Below, one piece after another: positions 3,470-23,284 of a DNA stretch of 28,025 nt (the stretch's first letter is position 1; each line of letters begins with the position of its first letter). The position numbers were made by a program, and so were the translations under genes. Under the pieces are notes generated by a model that did no database searches, was not told the origin of the DNA, and saw only the letters and a program-made list of their open reading frames with translations. The DNA lies in assembly GCA_964353385.1 (NCBI GenBank), contig CAYGVP010000001.1:1-28025 (forward strand), given 5' to 3'. The DNA is from an uncultured Dehalococcoidaceae bacterium. Its GTDB lineage: Bacteria > Chloroflexota > Dehalococcoidia > Dehalococcoidales > RBG-16-60-22.

Positions 3470-3511
3470 TATTTTCTTAAGACAGATATTTTCTTAAGAC
3501 AGATATTTTCT
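3470..3511. repeat. 17-bp tandem direct repeat (x2 plus 8 bp) covering the cinA stop codon
   Basis: TATTTTCTTAAGACAGA at 3470-3486 and 3487-3503, then TATTTTCT at 3504-3511. Confidence 0.9.
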
Positions 3512-4693
3512 CAATTCGATGAGGGCCTGATAGGCAATCCTACCTATTACCTGGGTAAATCGACCGGAGAAGTCCCGCACTAAAGGCAACATCGGCTTGG
3601 GGCCGACGACGGCAATATAGACCTTAGCCATCTGGATATTATCGACGGTTTCAGTATGACCTTCGATGCCGATGCCGATATCGGCCTGAAATTTATCGCG
3701 AGCAAGAGACGCCATTGCCTTAGCGATATTCCCGGCACCGCCGGAACCCCAGACAAGGCCGAGGGAAATTTTAGCTTCATCCGAAGCGGTGAAAAATCCC
3801 CCCTTAAAGAAAAGACGACTTTCAGGAGCGCGAGAGAGCAACTGTATCAGCGAACCGCCGGTAAAAGATTCAGCCACAGCCAGAGACAGCTTTTTAGCAA
3901 TAAGCATTTCCCCGACTATGTTTTCCAGTACGTCATCATCCGCGCCCCAGATATAATCGCCAATTACGTTCCTGACAGATTTTTCATGCTGGGAAATCAT
4001 AGATTGGGCTTTTTCCAGAGTATCAGCCTTGGCAGTAATACGCAGGTGAATGCCATCCTGCTTGGCGTATGAAGCCAGGGTGGGGTTGGGGGATTTTAGC
4101 AGGGCTGCCAGGCGCTCATCAACCGTGGATTCCGGCAGGCCGAAGGTCTTAAGCGTGCGTGACAGGATGATGGCGCCGGCTCGCTTTTGCAGCGCAGGAG
4201 CAATATGGCTCTGCCACATGGGCTGCATTTCAGCAGGGGGGCCGGGCATGGCGATAATGATACGACCTTCCTTTTCCGCCCACCAGCCGGGCGCAGTGCC
4301 CCGGGGATTGGAAATAGCCTGGGCGGAAGGAATAAGCATTGCCTGCTTGAGATTGTTGGGCGTCATCTCGATGCCCCGCTCGGCGAAGAATTTTTCCATA
4401 GCCAGCTTCAGCACCGGGTCCGCTTCCATTTTTTCTCCGAAAAGACCGGCGATAGCCTCGCGGGTAATATCGCCCTGCGTGGGGCCGAGACCGCCCGTGG
4501 TGAGAATGAGGTCAGAGCGCTGACAAGCAGATTTTAAAGCGCCTAATAATCTTTCATAGTTATCACCGACCAAGGACGTAAAATAGAGGTCGATGCCAAG
4601 CGAAGCCAACTGCTGCGCCAGAAAGGAGGTATTGGTATCCGTCACTTCGCCGAGAAGGAGTTCAGTGCCGGTGGCGATAATTTCCGCTTTCAT
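3494..4693 (-). CDS. cinA: CinA-family protein (molybdopterin-binding/MocF domain plus PncC-like domain)
   Basis: AEIIATGTELLLGEVTDTN..FLA, GDN, TTGGLGPT..DITREA, NPRGTAPG, MPGPP.EM, and C-terminal LAVAESFTGG. Confidence 0.93.
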   Translation of the reverse strand: MKAEIIATGTELLLGEVTDTNTSFLAQQLASLGIDLYFTSLVGDNYERLLGALKSACQRSDLILTTGGLGPTQGDITREAIAGLFGEKMEADPVLKLAMEKFFAERGIEMTPNNLKQAMLIPSAQAISNPRGTAPGWWAEKEGRIIIAMPGPPAEMQPMWQSHIAPALQKRAGAIILSRTLKTFGLPESTVDERLAALLKSPNPTLASYAKQDGIHLRITAKADTLEKAQSMISQHEKSVRNVIGDYIWGADDDVLENIVGEMLIAKKLSLAVAESFTGGSLIQLLSRAPESRLFFKGGFFTASDEAKISLGLVWGSGGAGNIAKAMASLARDKFQADIGIGIEGHTETVDNIQMAKVYIAVVGPKPMLPLVRDFSGRFTQVIGRIAYQALIELRKYLS

Positions 4694-5383: not shown

Positions 5384-5531
5384 TCTCACACCTAAAGAGA
5401 TATTCTCAAGAGCCAAAGCATACCCTGATTACCTCATTTTTTCCACAACGGGTTAAACTTGCCAATTTTATGCGACTTTGCTATTTTGGAAATACCAGCC
5501 TTCCTGATATTATAGAAATAGCAGAGCATAA

Positions 5532-6188
5532 ATGGACGAAAAACCGATTATTAAAAGACTGGTAGTGGGTTCGCTATCAGCCAACTGTTTCATTGCAGGC
5601 AAGAAATCCTCCGGAGAGGGTCTGGTCATAGACCCCGGGGGAAACGGCGATGATATCTACCGGGCGATTGCCGATACCGGGCTGGATATTAAAATCATCG
5701 TGCTGACGCACGGTCACTCCGACCATATCGCGGCTTTGTACGATATACAGGATAAAACCGGCGCCGAGGTGGCTATTCACGCAGCCGATGCCGACTTCCT
5801 GGAAAGCGGCGGCTCTTACAGCTCACAGTTCGGCATATCTTACAAGACCCCACATCCGCCGGACCGCCTGCTGCGTGAAGGCGATACAGTCGATATCAGC
5901 GGGATGAGCTTTAAAGTGATACATACGCCGGGGCATACGCCGGGGAGCATCTGCCTGCTTACAGACGCAGGGGTATTTACCGGAGATACGATTTTCCGGC
6001 GCGGCATCGGCACCACTCTAATGCCGGGGAGCAGCCGCCCGCAGCTTTTAGAAAGCATCAGTAATAAATTAATGGTATTGCCGGATGATACGGTTATCTA
6101 TCCGGGGCACGGCCGGGAGACAACTATCGGCGCCGAACGCCGGGACAACCCTTATGTAACCGGCAAGGCCGGCCACAGCTACTGGTAA
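5532..6188 (+). CDS. MBL-fold metallo-hydrolase (glyoxalase II-like)
   Basis: IDPG, THGHSDH, HTPGHTPG, FTGDTIF, YPGHG..TTIG.ER..NPY motifs. Confidence 0.93.
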   Translation: MDEKPIIKRLVVGSLSANCFIAGKKSSGEGLVIDPGGNGDDIYRAIADTGLDIKIIVLTHGHSDHIAALYDIQDKTGAEVAIHAADADFLESGGSYSSQFGISYKTPHPPDRLLREGDTVDISGMSFKVIHTPGHTPGSICLLTDAGVFTGDTIFRRGIGTTLMPGSSRPQLLESISNKLMVLPDDTVIYPGHGRETTIGAERRDNPYVTGKAGHSYW

Positions 6189-7227: not shown

Positions 7228-7317
7228 AACCGTGATTCGTACCTGCATTATTAATAATTAATGATAAGGAGCGTTATGAACAACAAAAATAATCAAAAAA
7301 TAACAGGAGGTTTTAAA

Positions 7318-7683
7318 ATGCGTAGATGTTTTAGGAAATTCCGCAAATTAGAAAAAGGTTTTACTCTTGTTGAACTGCTTATCGTCGTGGCGATACTGGG
7401 GGTATTGTCCGCCGTCGTCCTGCCTAACGTAATCGGGTTAGCCGATGAAGGGCAGGTTGAAGCCGCCAAGGCCGAATTCGTAACGGTGCAAACGGCGATG
7501 GATACGATGATGGCGAAAGCCCATATTACCACAGTTACAGCTACAGCGGCAACGGGTAATATGTCATCCTTCCCTATCGGACACCCACTGTATCCAAACT
7601 ATTTGAGAACAGCAAACACACAGGGTACTTATTCCTGCGATCCAACCGGTCTGGTTGAACAGGTAACTACCAGTTATGAATAA
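7318..7683 (+). CDS. pilA: Type IV major pilin (prepilin N-terminal cleavage/methylation motif)
   Basis: Basic 14-aa leader MRRCFRKFRKLEKG|FTLVELLIVVAILGVLSAVVLP with Glu5; SD AGGAGG before the ATG at 7318; mature protein 107 aa. Confidence 0.9.
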   Translation: MRRCFRKFRKLEKGFTLVELLIVVAILGVLSAVVLPNVIGLADEGQVEAAKAEFVTVQTAMDTMMAKAHITTVTATAATGNMSSFPIGHPLYPNYLRTANTQGTYSCDPTGLVEQVTTSYE

Positions 7684-14787: not shown

Positions 14788-16473
14788 ATGTTAGCGGACA
14801 AGACCTCTAAAAAGACCCTTGGTGATATGCTTATCGAGGAGAAGCTTATCACGCCAGAACAGCTAGAAAGCGCCCTGGCAATACAGCGGCAAAAGGGCGG
14901 CAAACTAAGCGATATATTACTGAAACAGGGCCTAGTTAAAGCCGAGGAACTGGCTGTTGTGCTTAGTATTCAATTGAAGCTGCCGCTTATCGACCTTAGG
15001 AGACATACTGTGCAACCACAGGCGCTGCGGCTTATCCCGGAAGAAATGGCCCGTAAACATGCCCTTATTCCTCTGGATATTGTAAATGACTCTTTAATGG
15101 TGGTCATGGCCGACCCCGAGGACATCCGTACTCTTGAGGATATTAAGGTCCAGGCCAAGATGAGAGTAGAGGTAGCGCTCGGCGTACGTTCCGATATAGA
15201 AAGGGCGATAAATATTCATTACCGTTCAAGCGGCGCCATCGAAAAACAGGTAAGCCAGTTCGCGCCAGCGCCGGAAGAGAAAAAAGAAGAGACAACTACT
15301 ATCACTGCAAGCACGCCAATTGCCGAGACACTCAACCTGCTGGTAGCGCAAGCCGTTAAGGACCGGGCGTCCGATGTGCACATCGAACCACAAGAAGACA
15401 GGCTAAGGATAAGGTACCGGATTGACGGCATCCTGCATGATATGTATTCCTTTCCCCTTAATATCCATTCTCCGCTGGTATCACGGGTAAAAATTCTTGC
15501 GGAGATGGATATTTCAGAGCAGAGACGTCCGCAGGACGGTCAATTTGCCATTATGATAGGGGGCAACGAGATTGATATCCGCACAGCAACCTTGGAGACG
15601 CCTTATGGGGAGAGGGTGACATTGCGGATACTGGATAAATCGCTGGCGCTTTTTACGCTAACCGAACTTGGTTTTCAACCCGATGTCCTGAAGAAGTATC
15701 GGGCGATGCTGAAGAGTCCGATTGGCATGATACTAGCCGGAGGGCCAACCGGTTCCGGGAAAACAACTACCCTATACGCCTCTATCAATGAGCTGGATAG
15801 AAACGAACGTAATATTATGACGATTGAAGACCCGATAGAATATAGTTTTATGGATATTAACCAGGCACAGGTGAACACTAAGGCAGGTCTGACTTTTGCC
15901 AACGGTCTGCGGGCAATCATGCGGCACGACCCGGATGTGATACTCGTAGGAGAGATAAGAGACAAGGATACCGTTAGCACCGCTATCCAGGCTTCTCTTA
16001 CAGGGCATCTGGTGCTGTCCTCAATACATGCCAACGATGCTGTCGGTGTGCTTTTCCGGATGATGGACCTCGAAGCGGAAGCTTCTTCCATCTCAACTAC
16101 GCTTATCGGTATGGTTTCGCAGCGAATGGTACGCCGCATATGTACCAATTGCCGCTCGACTTACCGTCCGACCGATGAAGAGCTGGAGGTTTTTAACAAG
16201 GAAATGGGGAATGAAGCTACTACGTTCTATCACGGCACAGGATGCAATTTATGCGCCGATACCGGCTACCGCGGGCGGACGGGGATTTTTGAATTCCTAA
16301 CTATGAGCGAGCCTATCAGGAAGCTGCTGCGGAGCAACGCCGGAGCCAGCGAAATAAGAGCGCAAGCCATCGCCGAGGGTATGGTAACGATGAAACAGGA
16401 CGGCATGAAAAAAGTTAAGGACGGGGTGACATCAATCAGCGAGGTAATGCGCAGCGTATTTTCAGTTAGCTGA
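14788..16473 (+). CDS. pilB: Type IV pilus assembly ATPase PilB/GspE
   Basis: N-terminal MshEN-like KTLGDMLIEEKLITPEQLESAL, ASDVHIEP, Walker A GPTGSGKTTT, TIEDPIEY, DPDVILVGEIRD, GHLVLSSIHAND, Zn-binding CTNC/CNLC, GYRGRTGIFE. Confidence 0.95.
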   Translation: MLADKTSKKTLGDMLIEEKLITPEQLESALAIQRQKGGKLSDILLKQGLVKAEELAVVLSIQLKLPLIDLRRHTVQPQALRLIPEEMARKHALIPLDIVNDSLMVVMADPEDIRTLEDIKVQAKMRVEVALGVRSDIERAINIHYRSSGAIEKQVSQFAPAPEEKKEETTTITASTPIAETLNLLVAQAVKDRASDVHIEPQEDRLRIRYRIDGILHDMYSFPLNIHSPLVSRVKILAEMDISEQRRPQDGQFAIMIGGNEIDIRTATLETPYGERVTLRILDKSLALFTLTELGFQPDVLKKYRAMLKSPIGMILAGGPTGSGKTTTLYASINELDRNERNIMTIEDPIEYSFMDINQAQVNTKAGLTFANGLRAIMRHDPDVILVGEIRDKDTVSTAIQASLTGHLVLSSIHANDAVGVLFRMMDLEAEASSISTTLIGMVSQRMVRRICTNCRSTYRPTDEELEVFNKEMGNEATTFYHGTGCNLCADTGYRGRTGIFEFLTMSEPIRKLLRSNAGASEIRAQAIAEGMVTMKQDGMKKVKDGVTSISEVMRSVFSVS

Positions 16474-16483
16474 CGAGGGTAAG

Positions 16484-17698
16484 ATGACTTATAAATATCG
16501 AGCTTATTCTGCGGATAAAAAGATAATCGAAGGAAAGATTGATGTTGCCTCGGAGAACATGGCCGAGGCTGCTCTATACCATGCCGGGTTCCGGAATGTC
16601 ATCAGCCTGAAAGAAGTAACGCCGGGAGGACTAGATGTTAGTAAGCTGTTACCGACATTTGCCGGCGTCAAGATGCGGGACGTAATTGATATATCAAATC
16701 AACTTGCCACGCTAATCCAGGCGGGTATTCCCCTGTTATCCGCACTAAAGCTGCTTAGCGGACAGCTAATAAAGAAAGCGACGAAAAAAATTTTCAGCGG
16801 GTTAATCGAGGAAATTCAGGCCGGCAACTCGCTATCTCAAGGTTTAACCAAATATCCCCAGGCATTTCCCAATACGTATTGCCAGGTAATCAAAGCCAGC
16901 GAACAGGCCGGCACGCTGGAGGCCGGCTTAAGACAGGGAGCCAAATACCTTGAAAAACGTGCCTACGCGAACCAGAAAATAAAACGCGCCATGATGTATC
17001 CTATATTTGTTTTACTTATGGCTATCGGCGTGGCTTTTCTGCTGATTACAGTAGCCCTGCCACCTCTAACAGCTCTTTTCAATTCTCTTAATGTTCAGTT
17101 GCCATGGATGACCAGCACGCTGGTCAATACTGCCAATTTCTTTAGCTTTAACAGCCTTCCGTTACTCGGCGGACTGGTCGCCATCATATTGTCAATAATA
17201 GGTCTCTTAAGGCTGCAATCCGTGAAGCTGTCCAGAGACAGACTATTTTTAAAAATACCTATAATAGGCAAAATTATCATCGAACGCAGTATGGGGTTAT
17301 TCTGCCAGACAGCTTCGATGCTCTTGCAGGCAGGACTGCGGTTGCCCCAGATTATCGACATCGTCATCCAGACAAACCGTAACCAGGTATTACGTAATGC
17401 ATTTAAAAATGTCAGAGACAGATTGGTGCAGGGCGAGGGGCTATCCCAACCGATGTCCGAAAACACTATCTTTCCTCCCCTACTGGTTGAAATGACAGTG
17501 GTCGGCGAGAAGACCGGAGCGATGGATACCACGCTCGGCACCCTGGCGGACTTTTATGAACAGGAGGTCGACCGAAAAATCGACTCGCTGATATCGATGA
17601 TAGAGCCGGTATTGACTCTGGCCATCGGAGGGCTGGTGATTTTTATCGCCCTTTCCATGATAACGCCGCTCTATTCCATTTTAAAATCCATGCATTAA
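16484..17698 (+). CDS. pilC: Type IV pilus platform protein PilC/GspF
   Basis: Two T2SSF repeats (QLATLIQAGIPL..GE/SEQAGTLE; QTASMLLQAGLRL..VGEKTGAMD), AMMYP and MIEP TM anchors. Confidence 0.93.
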   Translation: MTYKYRAYSADKKIIEGKIDVASENMAEAALYHAGFRNVISLKEVTPGGLDVSKLLPTFAGVKMRDVIDISNQLATLIQAGIPLLSALKLLSGQLIKKATKKIFSGLIEEIQAGNSLSQGLTKYPQAFPNTYCQVIKASEQAGTLEAGLRQGAKYLEKRAYANQKIKRAMMYPIFVLLMAIGVAFLLITVALPPLTALFNSLNVQLPWMTSTLVNTANFFSFNSLPLLGGLVAIILSIIGLLRLQSVKLSRDRLFLKIPIIGKIIIERSMGLFCQTASMLLQAGLRLPQIIDIVIQTNRNQVLRNAFKNVRDRLVQGEGLSQPMSENTIFPPLLVEMTVVGEKTGAMDTTLGTLADFYEQEVDRKIDSLISMIEPVLTLAIGGLVIFIALSMITPLYSILKSMH

Positions 17699-18105
17699 TG
17701 ATAAAGGTAAAAAAAGAGATGACGAAAGCAACACGGCCTCGAACTCAATTGAATAGCCAGCAAGGCATCGGCCTGGTGGAAACACTGGTGGCCGTCGCGA
17801 TTCTGGGAACTTCAGTGGTGGCTTTTATAGTATCCCTTTCGGCAGGTTCGCTTACGGTAAACGAACTCAACCGGGAAACCATAGCGCAGAGTCTGGCGCA
17901 GACACAGATGGAATACACGAAAAATTACGCCTTTATCCCCGGCGCCGTAACTTATCCTGTATTAGCTGCCCCGGCTACCTACAGTGTATCGGTCGATGTG
18001 CTTGACGTACCCAGTACCGATACAAACATACAGAAGATAACGGTAACCGTCCAGAAGGATAGCGCAAATATCCTTGCGGTTTCCAATTACAAGGTGAAAA
18101 GATGA
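17698..18105 (+). CDS. Minor type IV pilin (PilV-like)
   Basis: QQG|IGLVETLVAVAILG with Glu5; C-terminal IQKITVTV. Alternative start at 17719. Confidence 0.85.
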   Translation: MIKVKKEMTKATRPRTQLNSQQGIGLVETLVAVAILGTSVVAFIVSLSAGSLTVNELNRETIAQSLAQTQMEYTKNYAFIPGAVTYPVLAAPATYSVSVDVLDVPSTDTNIQKITVTVQKDSANILAVSNYKVKR

Positions 18106-18554
18106 AAAGCCAAGCGGGCGCAACTATGGTAGAACTGATTACAGCCGTAGCTATAACCGGCATAATCGTCGCTTTTTTAGGTACGGCTATCTACCACATT
18201 ATTACCGTTTCTGAATACGGCAATGACGAGTTCACCGCTTTGCATGAGCTGCAAAACGCTGCCTACTGGTTTAGCAAGGACGGGCAAGAAGCGAAAGCAG
18301 CCGTCGGGGGCAGCCAACTCGTGCTGACGCTGACCGATAATTCCACGGTCACCTACACGCTGGTCGGTTCCAATTTACAACGTACTGCCGCTGGTCAGCA
18401 GATAATCCTGGCACGCAATATAAGCCGCGCTGATTTTTCAGTAAACAACCGCCTGGCGACAATGAGTCTGATTTCTGCCCCTCCCGGGAGGAATAATGTG
18501 AGCGAGAACGGAACATATATGATTAATTTAAGGCCGATTGAGGTGGAAAAATGA
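18102..18554 (+). CDS. Minor type IV pilin (PilW/GspJ-like)
   Basis: MKSQAG|ATMVELITAVAITGII with Glu5; YTLVGSNLQR beta region. Confidence 0.85.
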   Translation: MKSQAGATMVELITAVAITGIIVAFLGTAIYHIITVSEYGNDEFTALHELQNAAYWFSKDGQEAKAAVGGSQLVLTLTDNSTVTYTLVGSNLQRTAAGQQIILARNISRADFSVNNRLATMSLISAPPGRNNVSENGTYMINLRPIEVEK

Positions 18555-20065
18555 ACGGCGAAAAGGGGCAAGCCCTGCCTTTAGCCATCATGGCGCTTAC
18601 CATAGGCACACTGCTAATTGCGCCATTCCTGGGGCATGCCGGCAGCAGTATCATCGGGTCCAGGACATATGGCGAAGCTATAGACTACCGGAACGCTTGC
18701 GATGCAGGAGTGGAGCACGCCATCTGGAGTCTCTTTTATGACGAGCTGGGAGACCTGATACCCAATCCCGGTGACCAGATTACCTATCAATTACCGGAGA
18801 CAGTCAATGGTGTAACAACTTCCGTTACAATAACCTCTAACGCAAGCGGCGGCGGGGATATAGGGAGCATCAATAAAACCGTTATAGACAGATTCGATTT
18901 TGATGGGGCATACTGCAATACGCCTGATATGATACATGTCTCCGGCAATATTTACGCTATAGCTTATAATGGACCAGCTAACGATGGATTCGTCAAGACA
19001 GTGGAAATAGCCCTGGATGGAAGCATCACCAACAGCGCTATCGATACGCTGGAGTTCGATACGAGCGATTGTTATAATCCCAATATTATTTTCGTATCTA
19101 ACAATATTTACGCTATTGCTTACAGAGGGCCGAGCAACGACGGCTTTATCAAGACGGTATCTATTGCCTCCAATGGCGACATAGGCAACAGCGTTATCGA
19201 CACTCTTGAGTTTGATACCAGCGACTGCTACGAACCGGATATTACCTTTGTATCCGGCATATATTACGCTATCGCTTATAGGGGACCAGCTAGCGACGGC
19301 TTTCTTAAGACGGTAACGATAGCCGCCAATGGCGATATAAGCAATGCCGCCATCGACACATTGGAGTTTGACCCCAGCAATTGCTACGAACCGGATATCA
19401 TCTACATATCCCCGACATATTTTGCGATTGCATATCGGGGCGTAAGCAACGACGGCTTCCTGAAGACAGTGACCATTGCTGCTAATGGCGATATAGGCAA
19501 TAGCGTTATCGACACTCTGGAATTCGATACCAGCGACGGAGCTTACCCCTATATCATGAATATTTCCGGGAACACCTATGCCATAGTGTATACAGGCTCG
19601 AGTTCCGACGGTTTTATCAAAACGATGACAATTTCTGGTGTCGGTGATATATCCAACAGCGTTATCAGCAGCTTCGAATTCGACCCCGCCAACGGGCAGG
19701 AGCCTCAAATAATCCATATCGTAGGGAATACTTTTGCTATAGCCTATGACGGTCCCCAGAATGACGGATACCTGATAACCCTGCCGATAGAACCAAACGG
19801 CACCATTCCCGGTACGATAACCGATACCTTTGAATACGACACCAGCAACGGATATTTTCCGGATATCGTCGCTATCTCGGAAGGAATCGTCGCAATCGCT
19901 TATGACATCCCATCATCAAGGGGAAAGCTGGTTACTATTGGTGTTAATACCATTAGCGCCTTTAATGCTTATCGAATTAGAGTCACCGCCGGCGATACCG
20001 CTATTCAAGCCAGTGTAGTTACTGATAATACTTCAACATATATAACTGCCTGGCAGGTGCAATAA
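18551..20065 (+). CDS. Large PilX/GspK-like minor pilin with an inserted 52-aa repeat (predicted beta-propeller) domain
   Basis: MNGEKG|QALPLAIMALTIG (no Glu5, as in PilX/GspK), DAGVEHAIW, six full and two half repeats, C-terminal YRIRVTAG..IQASV..ITAW. Confidence 0.85.
   Translation: MNGEKGQALPLAIMALTIGTLLIAPFLGHAGSSIIGSRTYGEAIDYRNACDAGVEHAIWSLFYDELGDLIPNPGDQITYQLPETVNGVTTSVTITSNASGGGDIGSINKTVIDRFDFDGAYCNTPDMIHVSGNIYAIAYNGPANDGFVKTVEIALDGSITNSAIDTLEFDTSDCYNPNIIFVSNNIYAIAYRGPSNDGFIKTVSIASNGDIGNSVIDTLEFDTSDCYEPDITFVSGIYYAIAYRGPASDGFLKTVTIAANGDISNAAIDTLEFDPSNCYEPDIIYISPTYFAIAYRGVSNDGFLKTVTIAANGDIGNSVIDTLEFDTSDGAYPYIMNISGNTYAIVYTGSSSDGFIKTMTISGVGDISNSVISSFEFDPANGQEPQIIHIVGNTFAIAYDGPQNDGYLITLPIEPNGTIPGTITDTFEYDTSNGYFPDIVAISEGIVAIAYDIPSSRGKLVTIGVNTISAFNAYRIRVTAGDTAIQASVVTDNTSTYITAWQVQ
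18863..19945 (+). repeat. 156-bp/52-aa tandem coding repeats
   Basis: Consensus (I/Y/T)YAIAYxGPxNDGFxKTVxIAxNGDIxNSxIDTLEFDTSDCYEPDIxxVSxx; full copies span 18950-19885. Confidence 0.92.
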
Positions 20066-20100
20066 GAGATGCGAGGAAAAAACTTGTTTAAGAGAGATTT

Positions 20101-20664
20101 ATGAAAAAACGCGGAGCACTCATCATCATATTAATATTAGCGCTGCTGGTGGTCTATTATATTTTCGGCATGGATTACCTGAAGCAGCGGAACCAGAAAG
20201 AAAACCTGAAGGCTCAGATTTCTGAAGATACGGCGACGCTGTCTTTAATTCCCCTACCGCCTGCTGACCTCGAGCAGCAACTGGCTGACGCTGAAGATAG
20301 CCTGTGGGCAATAAAAGACACTTTGAAGATAGATACGAATATTACCCGAATCGTCAACGGCATTCTTAGATTGGGAAACGAGACCGGGGTCAAGGCGATA
20401 CCGCTATCAACGCAACCCTGGGTAATCGAGCATATTTCAAATCAGGACTACTCGGTTTTTCGCATTGACATAGCGATTACCGGAAACTTTACGCAAATGG
20501 CCGAGTTTTTAAAGCGCCTGGAAAACGGCGAACCTGAAACGCTTGTCCTTGAGTATTCGAAGGTCGAAAAAGCACCCGGCTCTTTCCTATCTGAAAGCCC
20601 GGGCGAAGGACCAATAAGCGCTAATATCAGACTAGCCATTTACACTCTACCTGTTATTGGTTGA
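20101..20664 (+). CDS. PilO-like pilus alignment protein
   Basis: N-terminal TM, coiled coil, then VFRIDIAITGNFTQMAEFLKRLE (PilO/GspM ferredoxin-like fold motif). Confidence 0.75.
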   Translation: MKKRGALIIILILALLVVYYIFGMDYLKQRNQKENLKAQISEDTATLSLIPLPPADLEQQLADAEDSLWAIKDTLKIDTNITRIVNGILRLGNETGVKAIPLSTQPWVIEHISNQDYSVFRIDIAITGNFTQMAEFLKRLENGEPETLVLEYSKVEKAPGSFLSESPGEGPISANIRLAIYTLPVIG

Positions 20665-20686: not shown

Positions 20687-22198
20687 ATGTATGTCGCACT
20701 AAATATAAGCAGCCATAACATCAAATTACTATCGATGAAAGGTCGCCGGGTAGGAACATGGGCAACAGCCGACCTCGCTGAAGGCCTGGTGCATGACGGC
20801 CTGATTACGCAGCCCGAAGCTGTTGGAGAGGCGATAAATTCATTATTCAAGTCGACCGGGATACGGAAAAACAACGTTATTGTGAGCGTCGCGGGGTTAT
20901 CCTTTACCTACCGGTTTATCAGCCTGCCACGTATAAAACCCGCGTTACTTGAGGAAGCTCTCTTACGTGCCGCGAAAAAAGAGATATCTTTGCCTTTAGA
21001 AGAACTCTATATCTCGTGGAAACCGATACATAGCAAGGGTGAGGAGCAGGAATATTTTATCATCGGCGTGCCGCGTAATCTGGTCGATGCCACTGTTCAG
21101 ACTTTAAAAATAGCAAATGTGGAGCCTTACCTCATGGACGTGCGGCCGCTGGCTCTAGCGCGGGCAGCTCACCAGAACGATGCAATCGTTGTCAATATGG
21201 AGCCCGATTGTTTTGATATTGTCTTCATCACACAGGGTTTACCGACAGTAATACACACGATAAGCCCGAGGAGTGACGGAGCTACGATAGAAGATAATAT
21301 CCACCGCCTGGCGGACGAATTAACGAAAACGGCCGCCTTTTACCAAAGCAATCACCCTGATATACAACTGAATGGGTCGCTTCCTTTATTGCTTGCCGGA
21401 GAACTGGCAGCCGATACAAGAACCAGCCAGATGCTTCAATCTGAAATTGAATACCCGATCGAACCACTGATTCCACCGGTAGAATTTCCTGATAGATTAC
21501 CAATCGCTTCTTATGCCACCAATATCGGGCTGGCTACCAAAAGAACACCGTTAAAGTCACTTGACCACGGTAGTGTGTCACGCTTTTTTGATATTGATGT
21601 AAATATCTTAGAGGGGAAATACCGTAAGCCTAAAGCCAAACCTATCCCAATAAAGAACTGGTTATTGACATCTCTTCTTATAGCGGTTATCGCATGTCTA
21701 TTCCCGCTTTATCAGGCCAAGAGTCAAATAGCTGTAGAAAACAGCTCGCTGGAAGCAGCTTTGGATAACATTTACCGCGAACTTAATCTGGCAACCCTGG
21801 TAAACGCAGAAACCATGTTGACCCAGGGAAAAATCAGCGAGACTAATGCAATGGCTGAATCTCTAGAAACCACCAATAAGAATATTTTCAGCGTCAGGGG
21901 CAATTTCGATACGGGATTACAGAAGGTCACCCGGGACATGCCGCTAAACACCTCATTTACATCAATAGAAATCAAAAAAGATGTTATTGTAATTAAGGGA
22001 GAAACAGATAGCGTTTTTACGGTAATCGAATATGCGAAGGCATTGGAGGCCGAGGGCGTATTTACCCAAGTTCGTATTACAGACCTGGATGAAACATATA
22101 TTGCAGTTCCCGGGACAGAAGAAACCGAGGAGCCTTCTTTGCTTCAAGTGTATATTATTACATTCGAAATCCAAGCACAATTACCGCTACCTGAATAA
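20687..22198 (+). CDS. PilM-PilN fusion protein
   Basis: N-terminal PilM/actin-like region (LNISSHNIKLL, DVRPLALARA, LLAGE), TM WLLTSLLIAVIACLFPLY, coiled coil, and PilN-like C-terminus (MPLNTSFTSIEIKKDVIVIKGET..EYAKALE..FTQV). Confidence 0.8.
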   Translation: MYVALNISSHNIKLLSMKGRRVGTWATADLAEGLVHDGLITQPEAVGEAINSLFKSTGIRKNNVIVSVAGLSFTYRFISLPRIKPALLEEALLRAAKKEISLPLEELYISWKPIHSKGEEQEYFIIGVPRNLVDATVQTLKIANVEPYLMDVRPLALARAAHQNDAIVVNMEPDCFDIVFITQGLPTVIHTISPRSDGATIEDNIHRLADELTKTAAFYQSNHPDIQLNGSLPLLLAGELAADTRTSQMLQSEIEYPIEPLIPPVEFPDRLPIASYATNIGLATKRTPLKSLDHGSVSRFFDIDVNILEGKYRKPKAKPIPIKNWLLTSLLIAVIACLFPLYQAKSQIAVENSSLEAALDNIYRELNLATLVNAETMLTQGKISETNAMAESLETTNKNIFSVRGNFDTGLQKVTRDMPLNTSFTSIEIKKDVIVIKGETDSVFTVIEYAKALEAEGVFTQVRITDLDETYIAVPGTEETEEPSLLQVYIITFEIQAQLPLPE

Positions 22199-22210
22199 GG
22201 AGATAACCAG

Positions 22211-23284
22211 ATGCACATCAACGACCTGTTAAAGCTGGCTACAAAACGGAACGCTTCTGACCTGCATTTGAAGGTTGGCAATTATCCCGTTTTGCGCATT
22301 AATGGAGAACTCATATTACAGAAAGATTCAACCATAATCACACCGAAGGATATGGATATCATCTTCAATGAAGTAACTACCGAGACGCAAAGAGAAACAT
22401 ACGCCAGAGAACTAGAAGCGGATTTCGCTTATCAGGCTCAAGACGTCGGCCGCTTCCGTATCAATATCTCCCAGCAGGAAGGAACGATAAGTCTGACCTG
22501 CCGTCCGATCAGAGTGGAATTACCGACCATAGAAGACCTGGGACTGCCAGAAACATGCAAAACACTTGCCTTAAAGAGTAATGGCCTGGTAATAGTAACC
22601 GGGCCTACCGGCTGCGGTAAGTCGACGACCCTCGCCGCTATGATAAACTACCTCAACCATACTGTCAGTCGCAAGATTATCACTATCACAGACCCGATAG
22701 AATACTTGCATCATGATATCAAGTGCATCATTTCCCAGCGAGAAATTGGCCGAGATACCCGGTCTTTCGCCAATGCTTTAAAACACGCCATGCGTCAAGA
22801 CCCCGATGTCATAATGGTAGGAGAAATGCGAGACCTTGAGACAATGGCGACCGTACTTACCGCGGCGGAGACCGGACACCTGGTATTGACAACGCTTCAT
22901 ACACTGGGCGCGGCGGAGGCGATTGACCGTTTCATAGATGTTTTTCCGCCGCACCAGCAACAGCAGGTGCGCATTCAGTTATCCATCGTACTCGAAGGAG
23001 TTATTTACCAGCTATTAGTACCTCGCGCCGATAATTCAGGACGTTTGCCTGCCGTTGAAGTAATGCTGGCATTACCTGCCATCAAGAATCTCATACGCGA
23101 AGGGAAAACGTACCAGATGATGAACACTATACAAACGGGAACACAGTATGGCATGCAAACCCTGAACCAATCGCTGGCCGATCTCTGTAAAAGAGGGATA
23201 ATAACCTGCGAACAGGCTATGACCAGGAGCAGTGATACCGAAGAACTATCCGAGATGCTCGGTAGACAGATAGCACATCACTAA
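22211..23284 (+). CDS. pilT: Type IV pilus retraction ATPase PilT
   Basis: ASDLHL, GPTGCGKSTTLAAMI, QREIG.DT.SF..AL..AMRQDPDVIMVGEMRD.ET, AAETGHLVLTTLHT, AIKNLIRE (AIRNLIRE motif), GMQT. Confidence 0.93.
   Translation: MHINDLLKLATKRNASDLHLKVGNYPVLRINGELILQKDSTIITPKDMDIIFNEVTTETQRETYARELEADFAYQAQDVGRFRINISQQEGTISLTCRPIRVELPTIEDLGLPETCKTLALKSNGLVIVTGPTGCGKSTTLAAMINYLNHTVSRKIITITDPIEYLHHDIKCIISQREIGRDTRSFANALKHAMRQDPDVIMVGEMRDLETMATVLTAAETGHLVLTTLHTLGAAEAIDRFIDVFPPHQQQQVRIQLSIVLEGVIYQLLVPRADNSGRLPAVEVMLALPAIKNLIREGKTYQMMNTIQTGTQYGMQTLNQSLADLCKRGIITCEQAMTRSSDTEELSEMLGRQIAHH

What the first reader, a model, noticed from the sequence alone, without database searches (positions are those of the whole stretch)
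18551..20065. PilX-like tip pilin with a ~7-blade beta-propeller inserted into the pilin fold
Seen: an N-terminal pilin helix lacking Glu5 (aa 7-60) and C-terminal pilin-like strands (aa 466-504) flank six full 52-aa repeats (aa 134-445) plus a leading half (105-133) and a trailing half (446-465) that together complete a seventh unit. Cys sits at the same position in four consecutive units (122, 174, 226, 278) and Gly in the last three; acidic DTLEFDTSD and NDG turns recur. Known: split first/last blades give the velcro closure of propellers, PilY1 adhesins are separate propeller proteins, and modular minor pilins carry adhesin domains in streptococci. Inference: a fused pilin-adhesin replacing PilY1, possibly binding Ca2+ or glycan, with a repeat family I do not recognise.
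Basis: partly seen in the sequence, partly recalled or inferred. Interest (0 to 1): 0.7.

Follow-up and report, generated by a model that had tools for sequence, protein, structure and literature searches.

The report
Pilus-tip pilin with inserted seven-blade propeller
This gene of an uncultured sediment Dehalococcoidia bacterium encodes the probable cap subunit of a type IV pilus: a tiny pilin lacking Glu5, with a seven-bladed beta-propeller of an uncatalogued 52-residue repeat spliced into one loop, most likely a built-in sticky tip. It is a variant of the known "modular pilin" design.

Summary
ORF 18551-20065 encodes 504 aa: a pilin-type leader and helix without Glu5 (cleavage motif KG|QALPL, so Pro4 and Leu5), seven 52-aa repeats, and three C-terminal strands. 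AlphaFold2 (pLDDT 89.7) gives 28 strands that superpose on seven-bladed propellers (Z 26-31).

The "insertion" reading is shown directly. An ortholog at the same operon position in another Dehalococcoidia genome is only 132 aa. It aligns to residues 1-99 and 470-504, and its model matches tip pilins (S. sanguinis PilA Z 11.1, GspK 9.5, ComZ 9.3).

A second pilus operon in the same genome carries a double jelly-roll at the same loop. Relatives carry DUF11, CBM96 plus a propeller, or 49 blades.

The gene lies after two small Glu5-bearing minor pilins in a PilB-PilC-...-PilO-PilMN-PilT operon. That order is conserved in 7 of 7 related loci.

The propeller repeat has no Pfam, NCBIfam or PDB sequence match. 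It is nonetheless widespread (about 2000 clusters at 50% identity), often alongside ConA-like lectin modules and other pilin N-termini.

Ligand binding, PilY1 replacement, Ca2+ binding and velcro closure are untested. The Cys column is a Gly/Cys small-residue position.

The design is known (ComZ, GspK, cyanobacterial PilX, TM7x PilX2). This scan has also reported the same family in two other genomes.

The parts
18551..20065 (+). Whole gene for the 504-aa Glu5-less minor pilin with an inserted propeller (P0001)
   Evidence: more than 900 homologs, nearly all about 505 aa
18551..18568 (+). Putative class III leader peptide MNGEKG (aa 1-6), predicted to be cleaved after Gly6
   Evidence: read from the sequence; G6/Q7/P10 invariant; prepilin peptidase gene present in the genome; cleavage itself is inferred
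18569..18739 (+). Pilin alpha1 helix (aa 7-63); Pro at +4, Leu at +5 (no Glu5)
18776..18847 (+). Pilin strands beta1-beta2 (aa 76-99), ending at the insertion point
18869..19945 (+). Seven-bladed beta-propeller (aa 107-465), seven 52-aa repeats of four strands each, pI about 4.05
19964..20059 (+). Pilin strands beta3-beta5 (aa 472-503), homologous to the C-terminal 32 residues of the 132-aa minimal pilin
17698..18105 (+). Minor pilin 1 (135 aa, QG|IGLVE, Glu5 present), weakly GspI/ComGE-like
18102..18554 (+). Minor pilin 2 (150 aa, AG|ATMVE, Glu5 present), weakly ComGF-like
14788..16473 (+). PilB-type extension ATPase with an MshEN c-di-GMP-binding N-domain
16484..17698 (+). PilC/GspF platform protein
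20101..20664 (+). PilO/GspM-like protein
20687..22198 (+). PilM-PilN fusion (503 aa)
22211..23284 (+). PilT-type retraction ATPase
7261..7683 (+). Major pilin candidate (KG|FTLVE, N_methyl match)

Best explanation
P0001 is the K-type (GspK / PilX / ComZ / S. sanguinis PilA class) minor pilin of a monoderm-style type IV pilus in a Dehalococcoidia bacterium. Shown: a minimal 132-aa pilin scaffold (one long helix plus a five-stranded sheet, no Glu5, Pro4) carries a complete seven-bladed beta-propeller in the hairpin between strands beta2 and beta3. Relatives carry other modules at the same loop. Inferred: the prepilin peptidase cleaves after Gly6. Because the protein lacks Glu5 and is far too bulky to fit within the filament body, it is incorporated first. 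Together with the two small Glu5-bearing minor pilins encoded just upstream, it primes and caps the filament, so the propeller sits at the distal tip. There it most likely acts as a multivalent binding head. All seven blades are held close to one consensus, the domain is very acidic, and the same propeller family recurs next to ConA-like lectin and CBM96 modules; together these point to a repetitive ligand such as a glycan or surface polymer. PilB (regulated by c-di-GMP through its MshEN domain) would extend the pilus and PilT retract it, giving attachment and pulling.
For: Architecture. The AF2 model has pLDDT 89.7, with 28 strands between residues 107 and 465. Only seven-bladed propellers head the fold searches: CylK Z 31.3, BP39L lectin 30.3, PLL lectin 29.6, YncE 29.0, rmsd 2.6-3.1 over about 300-320 residues; Foldseek places PLL/PHL lectins at E about 1e-12.

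Insertion. The 132-aa ortholog P0392 sits in an identical operon (PilC, minor pilin 133 aa, minor pilin 152 aa, P0392, PilO, PilM). It aligns to P0001 residues 1-99 and 470-504 with only 3-5 residues where the propeller lies.

Pilin class. The P0392 model (pLDDT 87.1) best matches S. sanguinis PilA (Z 11.1, rmsd 2.2, 96 aa), GspK (Z 9.5), ComZ (Z 9.3) and XcpX (Z 7.8). PilA also lacks Glu5 and has Pro4, and the K subunit is the Glu5-less cap (PMC9934059). GspK and ComZ carry domains inserted in the pilin sheet (PMC6561018).

Context. The major pilin and both upstream minor pilins have Glu5, while P0001 does not. The operon order is conserved in 7 of 7 related loci. A prepilin peptidase is present in the genome.

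Cassette behaviour. HMMs of the N and C halves of the scaffold bracket inserts of about 3, 135, 147, 159, 305, 322, 375 and 2500 residues. These include a double jelly-roll in the paralogous operon of the same genome, DUF11, and CBM96 plus a propeller.

Binding-head inference. Blades are 29-75% identical within the protein. Across orthologs, blade i is hardly closer to blade i (58%) than to any other blade (50%). The propeller family co-occurs with Laminin_G_3 in 8 of the roughly 25 multidomain proteins scanned, and also with CBM96, He_PIG and three kinds of pilin N-terminus. In Saccharibacteria TM7x, PilX2 bears a heptabladed propeller and has a non-canonical signal peptide, and its deletion reduces host binding (PMC11623550).
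Against: No ligand, processing or pilus localisation has been measured, and the structures are predictions. The N_methyl, PilX_N and T2SSK Pfam models do not match P0001, so pilin class rests on fold, motif and context. The propeller fold matches are generic: WD40 proteins, lactonases and lyases score Z 26-29, within 2-5 units of the lectins, so the fold gives no function. No canonical Ca2+-loop motif is present. The genome is only 70% complete, so absence of other tip proteins cannot be claimed.
Confidence: 0.7

Rival explanations
1. The propeller is a structural cap or priming plug only, a PilY1-like role in biogenesis or protection against retraction. It stabilises the tip complex and sets pilus number and length without recognising a specific ligand.
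For: Cyanobacterial PilX beta-solenoids have been proposed to fulfil the capping role of PilY1 (PMC13759059). K-type pilins are needed to initiate assembly (PMC9934059). PilT is encoded in the operon.
Against: A 132-aa insert-less ortholog sits in an otherwise identical operon, so the scaffold alone suffices for the core role. The inserts are swapped for lectin-type or Ig-type modules, which is what is expected of a specificity module and not of a plug.
Confidence: 0.12
2. It is a DNA receptor for natural transformation, like ComZ of Thermus or the ComG minor pilins.
For: The scaffold resembles ComZ (Z 9.3). The upstream pilins give weak ComGE/ComGF matches. A cinA gene lies in the window at 3494-4693.
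Against: The propeller has 46 Asp+Glu against 12 Lys+Arg, pI about 4.05, which is unfavourable for DNA binding. The ComGE/ComGF matches are below the family cut-offs.
Confidence: 0.04
3. It is an enzyme displayed on the pilus: a lactonase-, lyase- or alkylase-type propeller.
For: The top structural rows include CylK, PpgL gluconolactonase, virginiamycin B lyase and polysaccharide lyases. Atlas neighbours carry PF10282 Lactonase in 14-17% of members, but at a score of 0.79, which is below the trust level.
Against: All seven blades keep the same consensus, whereas enzymatic propellers have differentiated blades around one active site. There is no sequence match to any enzyme family.
Confidence: 0.04
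4. It is not a pilus subunit at all, but an unprocessed, membrane-anchored surface protein (signal-anchor type) that happens to be encoded in the pilus operon.
For: Pilin HMMs do not recognise the leader, and the +1 residue is Gln rather than Phe or Met.
Against: The scaffold folds as a pilin and best matches tip pilins. S. sanguinis PilA shows the same Pro4/no-Glu5 degeneracy and is a pilus subunit (PMC9934059). The gene's position directly after two minor pilins is conserved in 7 of 7 loci.
Confidence: 0.08

Closest known systems
PilX2 of Nanosynbacter lyticus TM7x (Saccharibacteria) thin type IV pilus (PMC11623550)
   Same: It is a PilX-type minor pilin with a non-canonical signal peptide that bears a heptabladed beta-propeller and is proposed as the tip adhesin. 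That organism's second pilus system has a PilX with a jelly-roll domain, just as this genome has a second operon with a jelly-roll PilX.
   Different: The TM7x propeller is built of RCC1 repeats and is described as a C-terminal domain. Here the repeat is an uncatalogued 52-aa unit with no RCC1 match, and it is demonstrably an insertion inside the pilin sheet. The phylum is different. No genetics exist for this protein.
ComZ of Thermus thermophilus (PDB 6QVI; PMC6561018) and cyanobacterial PilX (PMC13759059)
   Same: These are GspK-like tip pilins with a large beta-rich domain inserted into the pilin sheet. The scaffold matches ComZ structurally at Z 9.3.
   Different: Their insert is a beta-solenoid placed between the penultimate and last strands. 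Here the insert is a propeller between beta2 and beta3 of a five-stranded sheet. ComZ binds DNA, whereas this domain is strongly acidic.
GspK / XcpX of type II secretion (PDB 3CI0, 5VTM)
   Same: A Glu5-less cap subunit that follows I- and J-type minor pilins and has a domain inserted in the pilin sheet; Z 9.5 and 7.8.
   Different: The GspK insert is an alpha-helical domain between strands 3 and 4. There is no sequence-level match, and the present system is a pilus with PilT, not a secretion pseudopilus.
PilA and the modular pilins PilB and PilC of Streptococcus sanguinis (PMC9934059, PMC8179133)
   Same: PilA is the best structural match of the scaffold (Z 11.1) and shares Pro4 and the lack of Glu5. 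PilB and PilC exemplify pilins that carry adhesion modules (vWA, ConA-like lectin) at the tip of a monoderm pilus.
   Different: In S. sanguinis the Glu5-less subunit is plain, and the modules are grafted C-terminally onto other pilins that do have Glu5. Here the Glu5-less subunit itself carries the module, as an internal insertion.
PLL/PHL/BP39L/CV39L seven-bladed propeller lectins and the PilY1 C-terminal propeller
   Same: A seven-bladed propeller with near-identical blades (PLL family; Foldseek E about 1e-12, Z about 30). PilY1 is a propeller at the pilus tip.
   Different: There is no sequence similarity, and the fold scores are barely above those for WD40 proteins or lactonases. PilY1 is a separate non-pilin protein with a Ca2+ site, and no such motif is present here.

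Membership tests
Type IV pilin (class III signal peptide) | Short charged leader ending in Gly, followed by a hydrophobic alpha1-N helix of about 20 residues | tested here: met
   MNGEKG|QALPLAIMALTIGTLLIAPFL; G6 invariant in 59 homologs; model helix from residue 8
Type IV pilin (class III signal peptide) | Glu at +5 of the mature protein, and a match to the N_methyl model (PF07963) | tested here: not met
   Leu at +5 and no PF07963 match. This is the expected exception for K-type cap pilins, and the three other pilins of the operon do have Glu5.
Type IV pilin (class III signal peptide) | Cleavage and methylation by prepilin peptidase | not testable with these tools
   A Peptidase_A24 gene is present on contig C15. 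Processing itself needs biochemistry.
Type IV pilin fold | Long N-terminal helix packed on an antiparallel sheet | tested here: met
   The minimal ortholog model has helix 8-63 plus five strands. Top PDB matches are pilins and pseudopilins, Z 11.1-7.1.
K-type tip minor pilin (GspK / PilX / ComZ / S. sanguinis PilA) | Lacks Glu5 | tested here: met
K-type tip minor pilin (GspK / PilX / ComZ / S. sanguinis PilA) | Structural similarity of the pilin module to GspK-class subunits | tested here: met
   PilA Z 11.1, GspK 9.5, ComZ 9.3, XcpX 7.8; the next unrelated folds score about 6
K-type tip minor pilin (GspK / PilX / ComZ / S. sanguinis PilA) | Encoded directly after I- and J-type minor pilins | tested here: inconclusive
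   Two small Glu5-bearing pilins precede it in 7 of 7 loci. Their GspI/ComGE and ComGF matches are below the cut-offs (E 4e-5 and 2e-3).
K-type tip minor pilin (GspK / PilX / ComZ / S. sanguinis PilA) | Sequence match to the PilX_N / T2SSK models | tested here: inconclusive
   No match for P0001. The paralog P0391 matches PilX_N only at E 0.14.
K-type tip minor pilin (GspK / PilX / ComZ / S. sanguinis PilA) | Location at the pilus tip in complex with the other minor pilins | not testable with these tools
   Needs pilus preparations, cryo-ET or pull-downs.
Seven-bladed beta-propeller | Seven four-stranded sheets closing a ring | tested here: met
   28 strands in residues 107-465; about 300-340 residues superpose on seven-bladed propellers at rmsd 2.5-3.5, Z 26-31
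Seven-bladed beta-propeller | Velcro closure (first and last strands share a blade) | not testable with these tools
   No coordinates are returned. The longest loop (about 11 aa) lies at the repeat boundary starting at residue 108, so repeats may coincide with blades, but that is inference only.
PLL-family propeller lectins | Sequence homology or conserved sugar-binding residues | tested here: not met
   A profile of 59 homologs finds no PDB sequence at E up to 10. Identity in the structural alignments is 6-15%.
PilY1 / PilC | PF05567 propeller with a Ca2+-binding loop; a non-pilin protein docking on the minor pilins | tested here: not met
   No PF05567 match on P0001; no DxDxD-type loops; the protein is itself a pilin.
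RCC1-repeat propeller (as in TM7x PilX2) | Pfam RCC1 repeats | tested here: not met
   No RCC1 match at E up to 0.01
Modular pilins (Raynaud et al. 2021) | A pilin module plus a module that is not specific to pilus biology | tested here: met
   The same propeller family occurs alone (about 380 aa) and in non-pilin giants: 133 of the 149 top cluster representatives checked lack the scaffold.

The most novel reading that the evidence does not exclude
The 132-aa Glu5-less pilin of Dehalococcoidia is a natural display scaffold with one hot-spot hairpin (beta2-beta3). Whole binding modules have been exchanged there repeatedly: almost nothing, DUF11, jelly-rolls, CBM96 plus a propeller, one propeller, or seven tandem propellers. 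Pilus-tip specificity would then be set by cassette swapping, and one genome keeps several pili with different heads. The pilin hairpin that ties the propeller's two ends together may also serve as the clasp that closes the ring in place of a velcro strand.
Probability: 0.35. Interest if true: 0.6.

Novelty: new variant of a known kind. Interest (0 to 1): 0.45.

Why it matters
Dehalococcoidia are abundant, mostly uncultured subsurface bacteria, and how they attach to surfaces is essentially unknown. This family has more than 900 clusters at 90% identity and is annotated everywhere as 'hypothetical'. It is the best candidate for the part of their pili that touches the outside world. It also provides three useful things: a clean natural series (the same scaffold with no insert or with different inserts) for studying how tip pilins acquire specificity; a widespread propeller repeat family that deserves a domain-library entry; and a compact scaffold that tolerates very large loop insertions.

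Tried and rejected
1. Complex prediction on the truncated soluble parts of the two upstream minor pilins plus P0001 (collected) returned 'no answer', because a control with chain 2 replaced scored almost as high. I draw nothing from it in either direction.

2. RNA evidence: no RNA holder is listed for the stretch, so there is no information on expression.

3. Laying contigs of four sediment metagenomes gave only short, low-depth pieces of related strains. No contig spans the gene and no blade-number variant is supported. Several contigs share 18688-18732 and then diverge, which fits other genes using the same pilin N-module but is weak evidence.

4. Phage link: an ESM-Atlas cluster of 374-aa propellers (TM 0.96) is labelled mostly viral. 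However, tblastn against 50,697 phage records found nothing, a viral-contig scan found nothing, and the neighbours of a stand-alone 380-aa homolog have no PHROG match. This stays a lead only.

5. Pfam, NCBIfam and PDB sequence searches of the repeat found no family. A language-model neighbour search gave only a weak Lactonase hint (score 0.79).

6. The PilY1 family search in the genome found nothing, but its control genomes were silent too, so it is uninformative. No secretin was found, but the genome is only 70% complete.

7. The 'shorter' homolog search returned almost only fragments from contig ends. The insert-less form was found instead by searching genomes with the N-terminal module.

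8. Regex scans for DxDxDG, integrin-type and PilY1-type Ca2+ loops and for RGD found none. This is a weak negative.

9. A functional role for the Cys column is rejected: the position alternates between Gly and Cys across blades and homologs.
Full report
**1. The observation**

The window holds a complete type IV pilus locus on the + strand:
- a major pilin (7261-7683, KG|FTLVE);
- PAS histidine kinases and receivers;
- PilB with an MshEN c-di-GMP-binding N-domain (14788-16473);
- PilC (16484-17698);
- two small minor pilins (17698-18105 and 18102-18554, both with Glu5);
- the finding (18551-20065);
- a PilO/GspM-like gene, a PilM-PilN fusion, PilT, and a further kinase and regulator.

The finding's ORF is open, 504 aa long, and starts with an ATG that overlaps the upstream stop codon.

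The 52-residue period is far above background. There are 177 identities at lag 52, against 6-37 at every other lag from 40 to 69, and TRF sees the 156-nt period in the DNA.

Two need re-reading:
- Counted from residue 108 there are seven complete repeats. The 'half + six + half' count is therefore a register choice and says nothing about velcro closure.
- The Cys/Gly column is Gly 61% / Cys 32% over all blades of 59 homologs. It is a small-residue position, not a functional cysteine.

**2. Fold**

With an alignment of 59 full-length homologs, AlphaFold2 gives a confident model (pLDDT 89.7, pTM 0.74). It has helices 8-36 and 38-63, strands 76-80 and 90-99, then 28 strands between 107 and 465 in seven groups of four, then strands 472-480, 483-491 and 496-503.

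Foldseek against the PDB is led by the seven-bladed lectins PLL, PHL and CV39L (E about 1e-12). The Foldseek-independent aligner gives:
- CylK propeller, Z 31.3;
- BP39L lectin, Z 30.3;
- PLL lectin, Z 29.6;
- YncE, Z 29.0;
- dozens of WD40, integrin-alpha, lactonase and lyase propellers at Z 26-29.

All of these are seven-bladed, with about 290-340 aligned residues at rmsd 2.4-3.5. The seven-bladed propeller is therefore confirmed, but the fold by itself does not single out a function.

**3. Is it an insertion in a pilin?**

Searching 301 Dehalococcoidia genomes with residues 1-104 found the N-terminal module in 68 of them, in open frames of 88 to 1391 aa.

One of these (L007) has the same operon: PilC, a minor pilin of 133 aa, a minor pilin of 152 aa, the homolog, PilO-like, PilM. 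Here the homolog, P0392, is only 132 aa. It aligns to P0001 residues 1-99 and 470-504, with 3-5 residues where P0001 has about 370.

Folded with a mixed alignment, P0392 is a classic pilin 'lollipop' with helix 8-63 and five strands (pLDDT 87.1). Its best PDB matches are:
- the minor pilin PilA of Streptococcus sanguinis (Z 11.1, rmsd 2.2, 96 residues);
- GspK (Z 9.5);
- ComZ (Z 9.3);
- XcpX (Z 7.8);
- other pilins follow.

From the literature:
- K subunits are the Glu5-less caps of the HIJK complex (PMC9934059).
- S. sanguinis PilA lacks Glu5 and has an unusual Pro4 (PMC9934059).
- GspK and ComZ both carry a foreign domain inserted into the pilin sheet (PMC6561018).

P0001 has Pro4 and Leu5, and G6, Q7 and P10 are invariant in the family. 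The propeller is thus an insertion into the beta2-beta3 hairpin of a K-type pilin. This site differs from GspK (between strands 3 and 4) and ComZ (between the penultimate and last strands).

**4. The site is a cassette site**

The same genome (1.57 Mb, 70% complete) has a second pilus operon on contig C142: PilC, a minor pilin of 136 aa, a minor pilin of 148 aa, P0241 (452 aa), PilO-like, PilM. P0241 shares the N-module (51% identity) and the C-terminal strands. Between them it carries two copies of a Trp-rich jelly-roll with an Endotoxin_C match at 8.6e-7.

A third paralog, P0391 (820 aa, contig C20), has the N-module, an insert of about 170 aa, a partial C-module and a long C-terminal extension.

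HMMs of the two scaffold halves bracket inserts of about 3, 135, 147, 159, 305, 322 and 375 residues in other genomes. Two of these inserts are DUF11 domains and one is CBM96 plus a propeller.

One metagenomic protein, P0242 (2690 aa), has the N-module at 29-124, the C-module at 2660-2690 and 49 blades (7 x 7) between them. It sits at the same operon position. It comes from a short-read assembly of a repeat, so its copy number needs confirmation.

Only 9 insert-less forms were found among 5.8 billion proteins, against more than 900 clusters of the form with the propeller.

**5. The propeller family**

No Pfam, NCBIfam or PDB sequence match exists. An exhaustive phmmer search finds 1996 cluster representatives at E up to 1e-3. 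Of the top 149 checked, only 16 have the pilin scaffold. The rest are stand-alone proteins of about 380 aa or multi-propeller giants of up to 3800 aa.

Among the multidomain members scanned, the propeller sits next to several other modules:
- Laminin_G_3 (ConA-like lectin) in eight proteins;
- CBM96 in two;
- He_PIG/PKD domains;
- archaeal Pilin_N N-termini;
- canonical bacterial N_methyl N-termini.

Within the GTDB species genomes sampled, the propeller is rare: 5 of 401 Dehalococcoidia genomes at E up to 1e-20, concentrated in the window's own family.

**6. Mechanism**

Shown: the architecture, the pilin class by fold and motif, the operon context with synteny in 7 of 7 loci, and the presence of a prepilin peptidase.

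Inferred from GspIJK, ComZ/PilA2 and S. sanguinis PilABC: the Glu5-less bulky subunit enters first and caps the filament, with the two small pilins beneath it.

The adhesin reading is also inferred, from five observations:
- Blades are 29-75% identical within the protein. Across orthologs, blade i is barely closer to blade i than to other blades (58% against 50%), the pattern of multivalent propeller lectins.
- The family repeatedly appears alongside lectin modules.
- An insert-less ortholog exists, so the insert is not needed for the core pilin role.
- The domain is very acidic (46 Asp+Glu against 12 Lys+Arg, pI 4.05), which argues against DNA binding.
- The propeller-bearing PilX2 of Saccharibacteria TM7x is required for efficient host binding (PMC11623550).

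No canonical Ca2+ loop is present. The ligand is unknown.

**7. Comparison and novelty**

Several parts of this design are already published:
- modular pilins that display grafted modules are widespread (PMC8179133);
- tip pilins with inserted domains are known (GspK, ComZ, cyanobacterial PilX; PMC6561018, PMC13759059);
- a PilX carrying a heptabladed propeller has been described and partly tested genetically (PMC11623550).

I found no description of this Dehalococcoidia family. What differs here:
- the repeat family is unnamed and is not RCC1;
- the insertion site is different;
- there is a natural series from an empty scaffold to 49 blades;
- two or three alternative heads coexist in one small genome.

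This scan has already reported the same family from two other genomes with the same conclusion, and my independent tests agree. I therefore rate it a new variant of a known kind, of moderate interest.

Noticed in passing
L005 (own genome, contig C142) 1321-2679, minus strand: A second, paralogous pilus operon in the same genome: PilC, a minor pilin of 136 aa, a minor pilin of 148 aa, P0241 (452 aa), PilO-like, PilM. P0241 uses the same pilin scaffold but carries two jelly-roll (Endotoxin_C-like) domains at the insertion site.
   Followed up: partly
L004 (own genome, contig C20) 3277-5739, minus strand: A third PilX-like gene, P0391 (820 aa). It has the same N-module, an insert of about 170 aa, a partial C-module and then about 500 further residues without any Pfam match. 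It lies beside ABC-2 transporter genes; the contig ends just upstream.
   Followed up: partly
L032 5001-13073: A 2690-aa homolog (P0242) with 49 blades, i.e. seven tandem propellers, between the two scaffold halves, at the same operon position. It comes from a short-read assembly, so the copy number is unverified.
   Followed up: partly
window 14788-16473: The PilB ATPase carries an MshEN-type c-di-GMP-binding N-terminal domain (NF053729, E 8.6e-17). This suggests that pilus extension is controlled by c-di-GMP. The operon is flanked by several PAS kinases and receivers.
   Followed up: no
window 20687-22198: PilM and PilN are fused into one 503-aa protein. The fusion is conserved in the related loci at 498-507 aa.
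   Followed up: no
L027-L031, about 5530-5690: Orthologous operons have a called ORF of 37-50 aa between the propeller pilin and the PilO-like gene. The window has only a 35-nt gap there (20066-20100).
   Followed up: no
window 18791-19717, minus strand: A 308-aa antisense open frame runs through the propeller repeats. It is probably a by-product of the repeat composition and not a gene.
   Followed up: no
L019 5001-6143: A stand-alone 380-aa propeller of the same family lies in a run of small co-directional genes that have no Pfam or PHROG match. An Atlas cluster of similar 374-aa proteins is labelled mostly viral. A possible phage receptor-binding use is unconfirmed.
   Followed up: partly
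P0300 (404 aa) and P0341 (347 aa), metagenomic homologs: Both scaffold halves are present but only 5 and 4 blades are detected. These are either real shortened inserts or collapsed repeat assemblies.
   Followed up: no
window 18688-18732: In four sediment metagenomes, contigs match this stretch of the pilin helix and then diverge immediately downstream (the same 253-letter loose end in three runs). This fits other genes that share the N-module.
   Followed up: no
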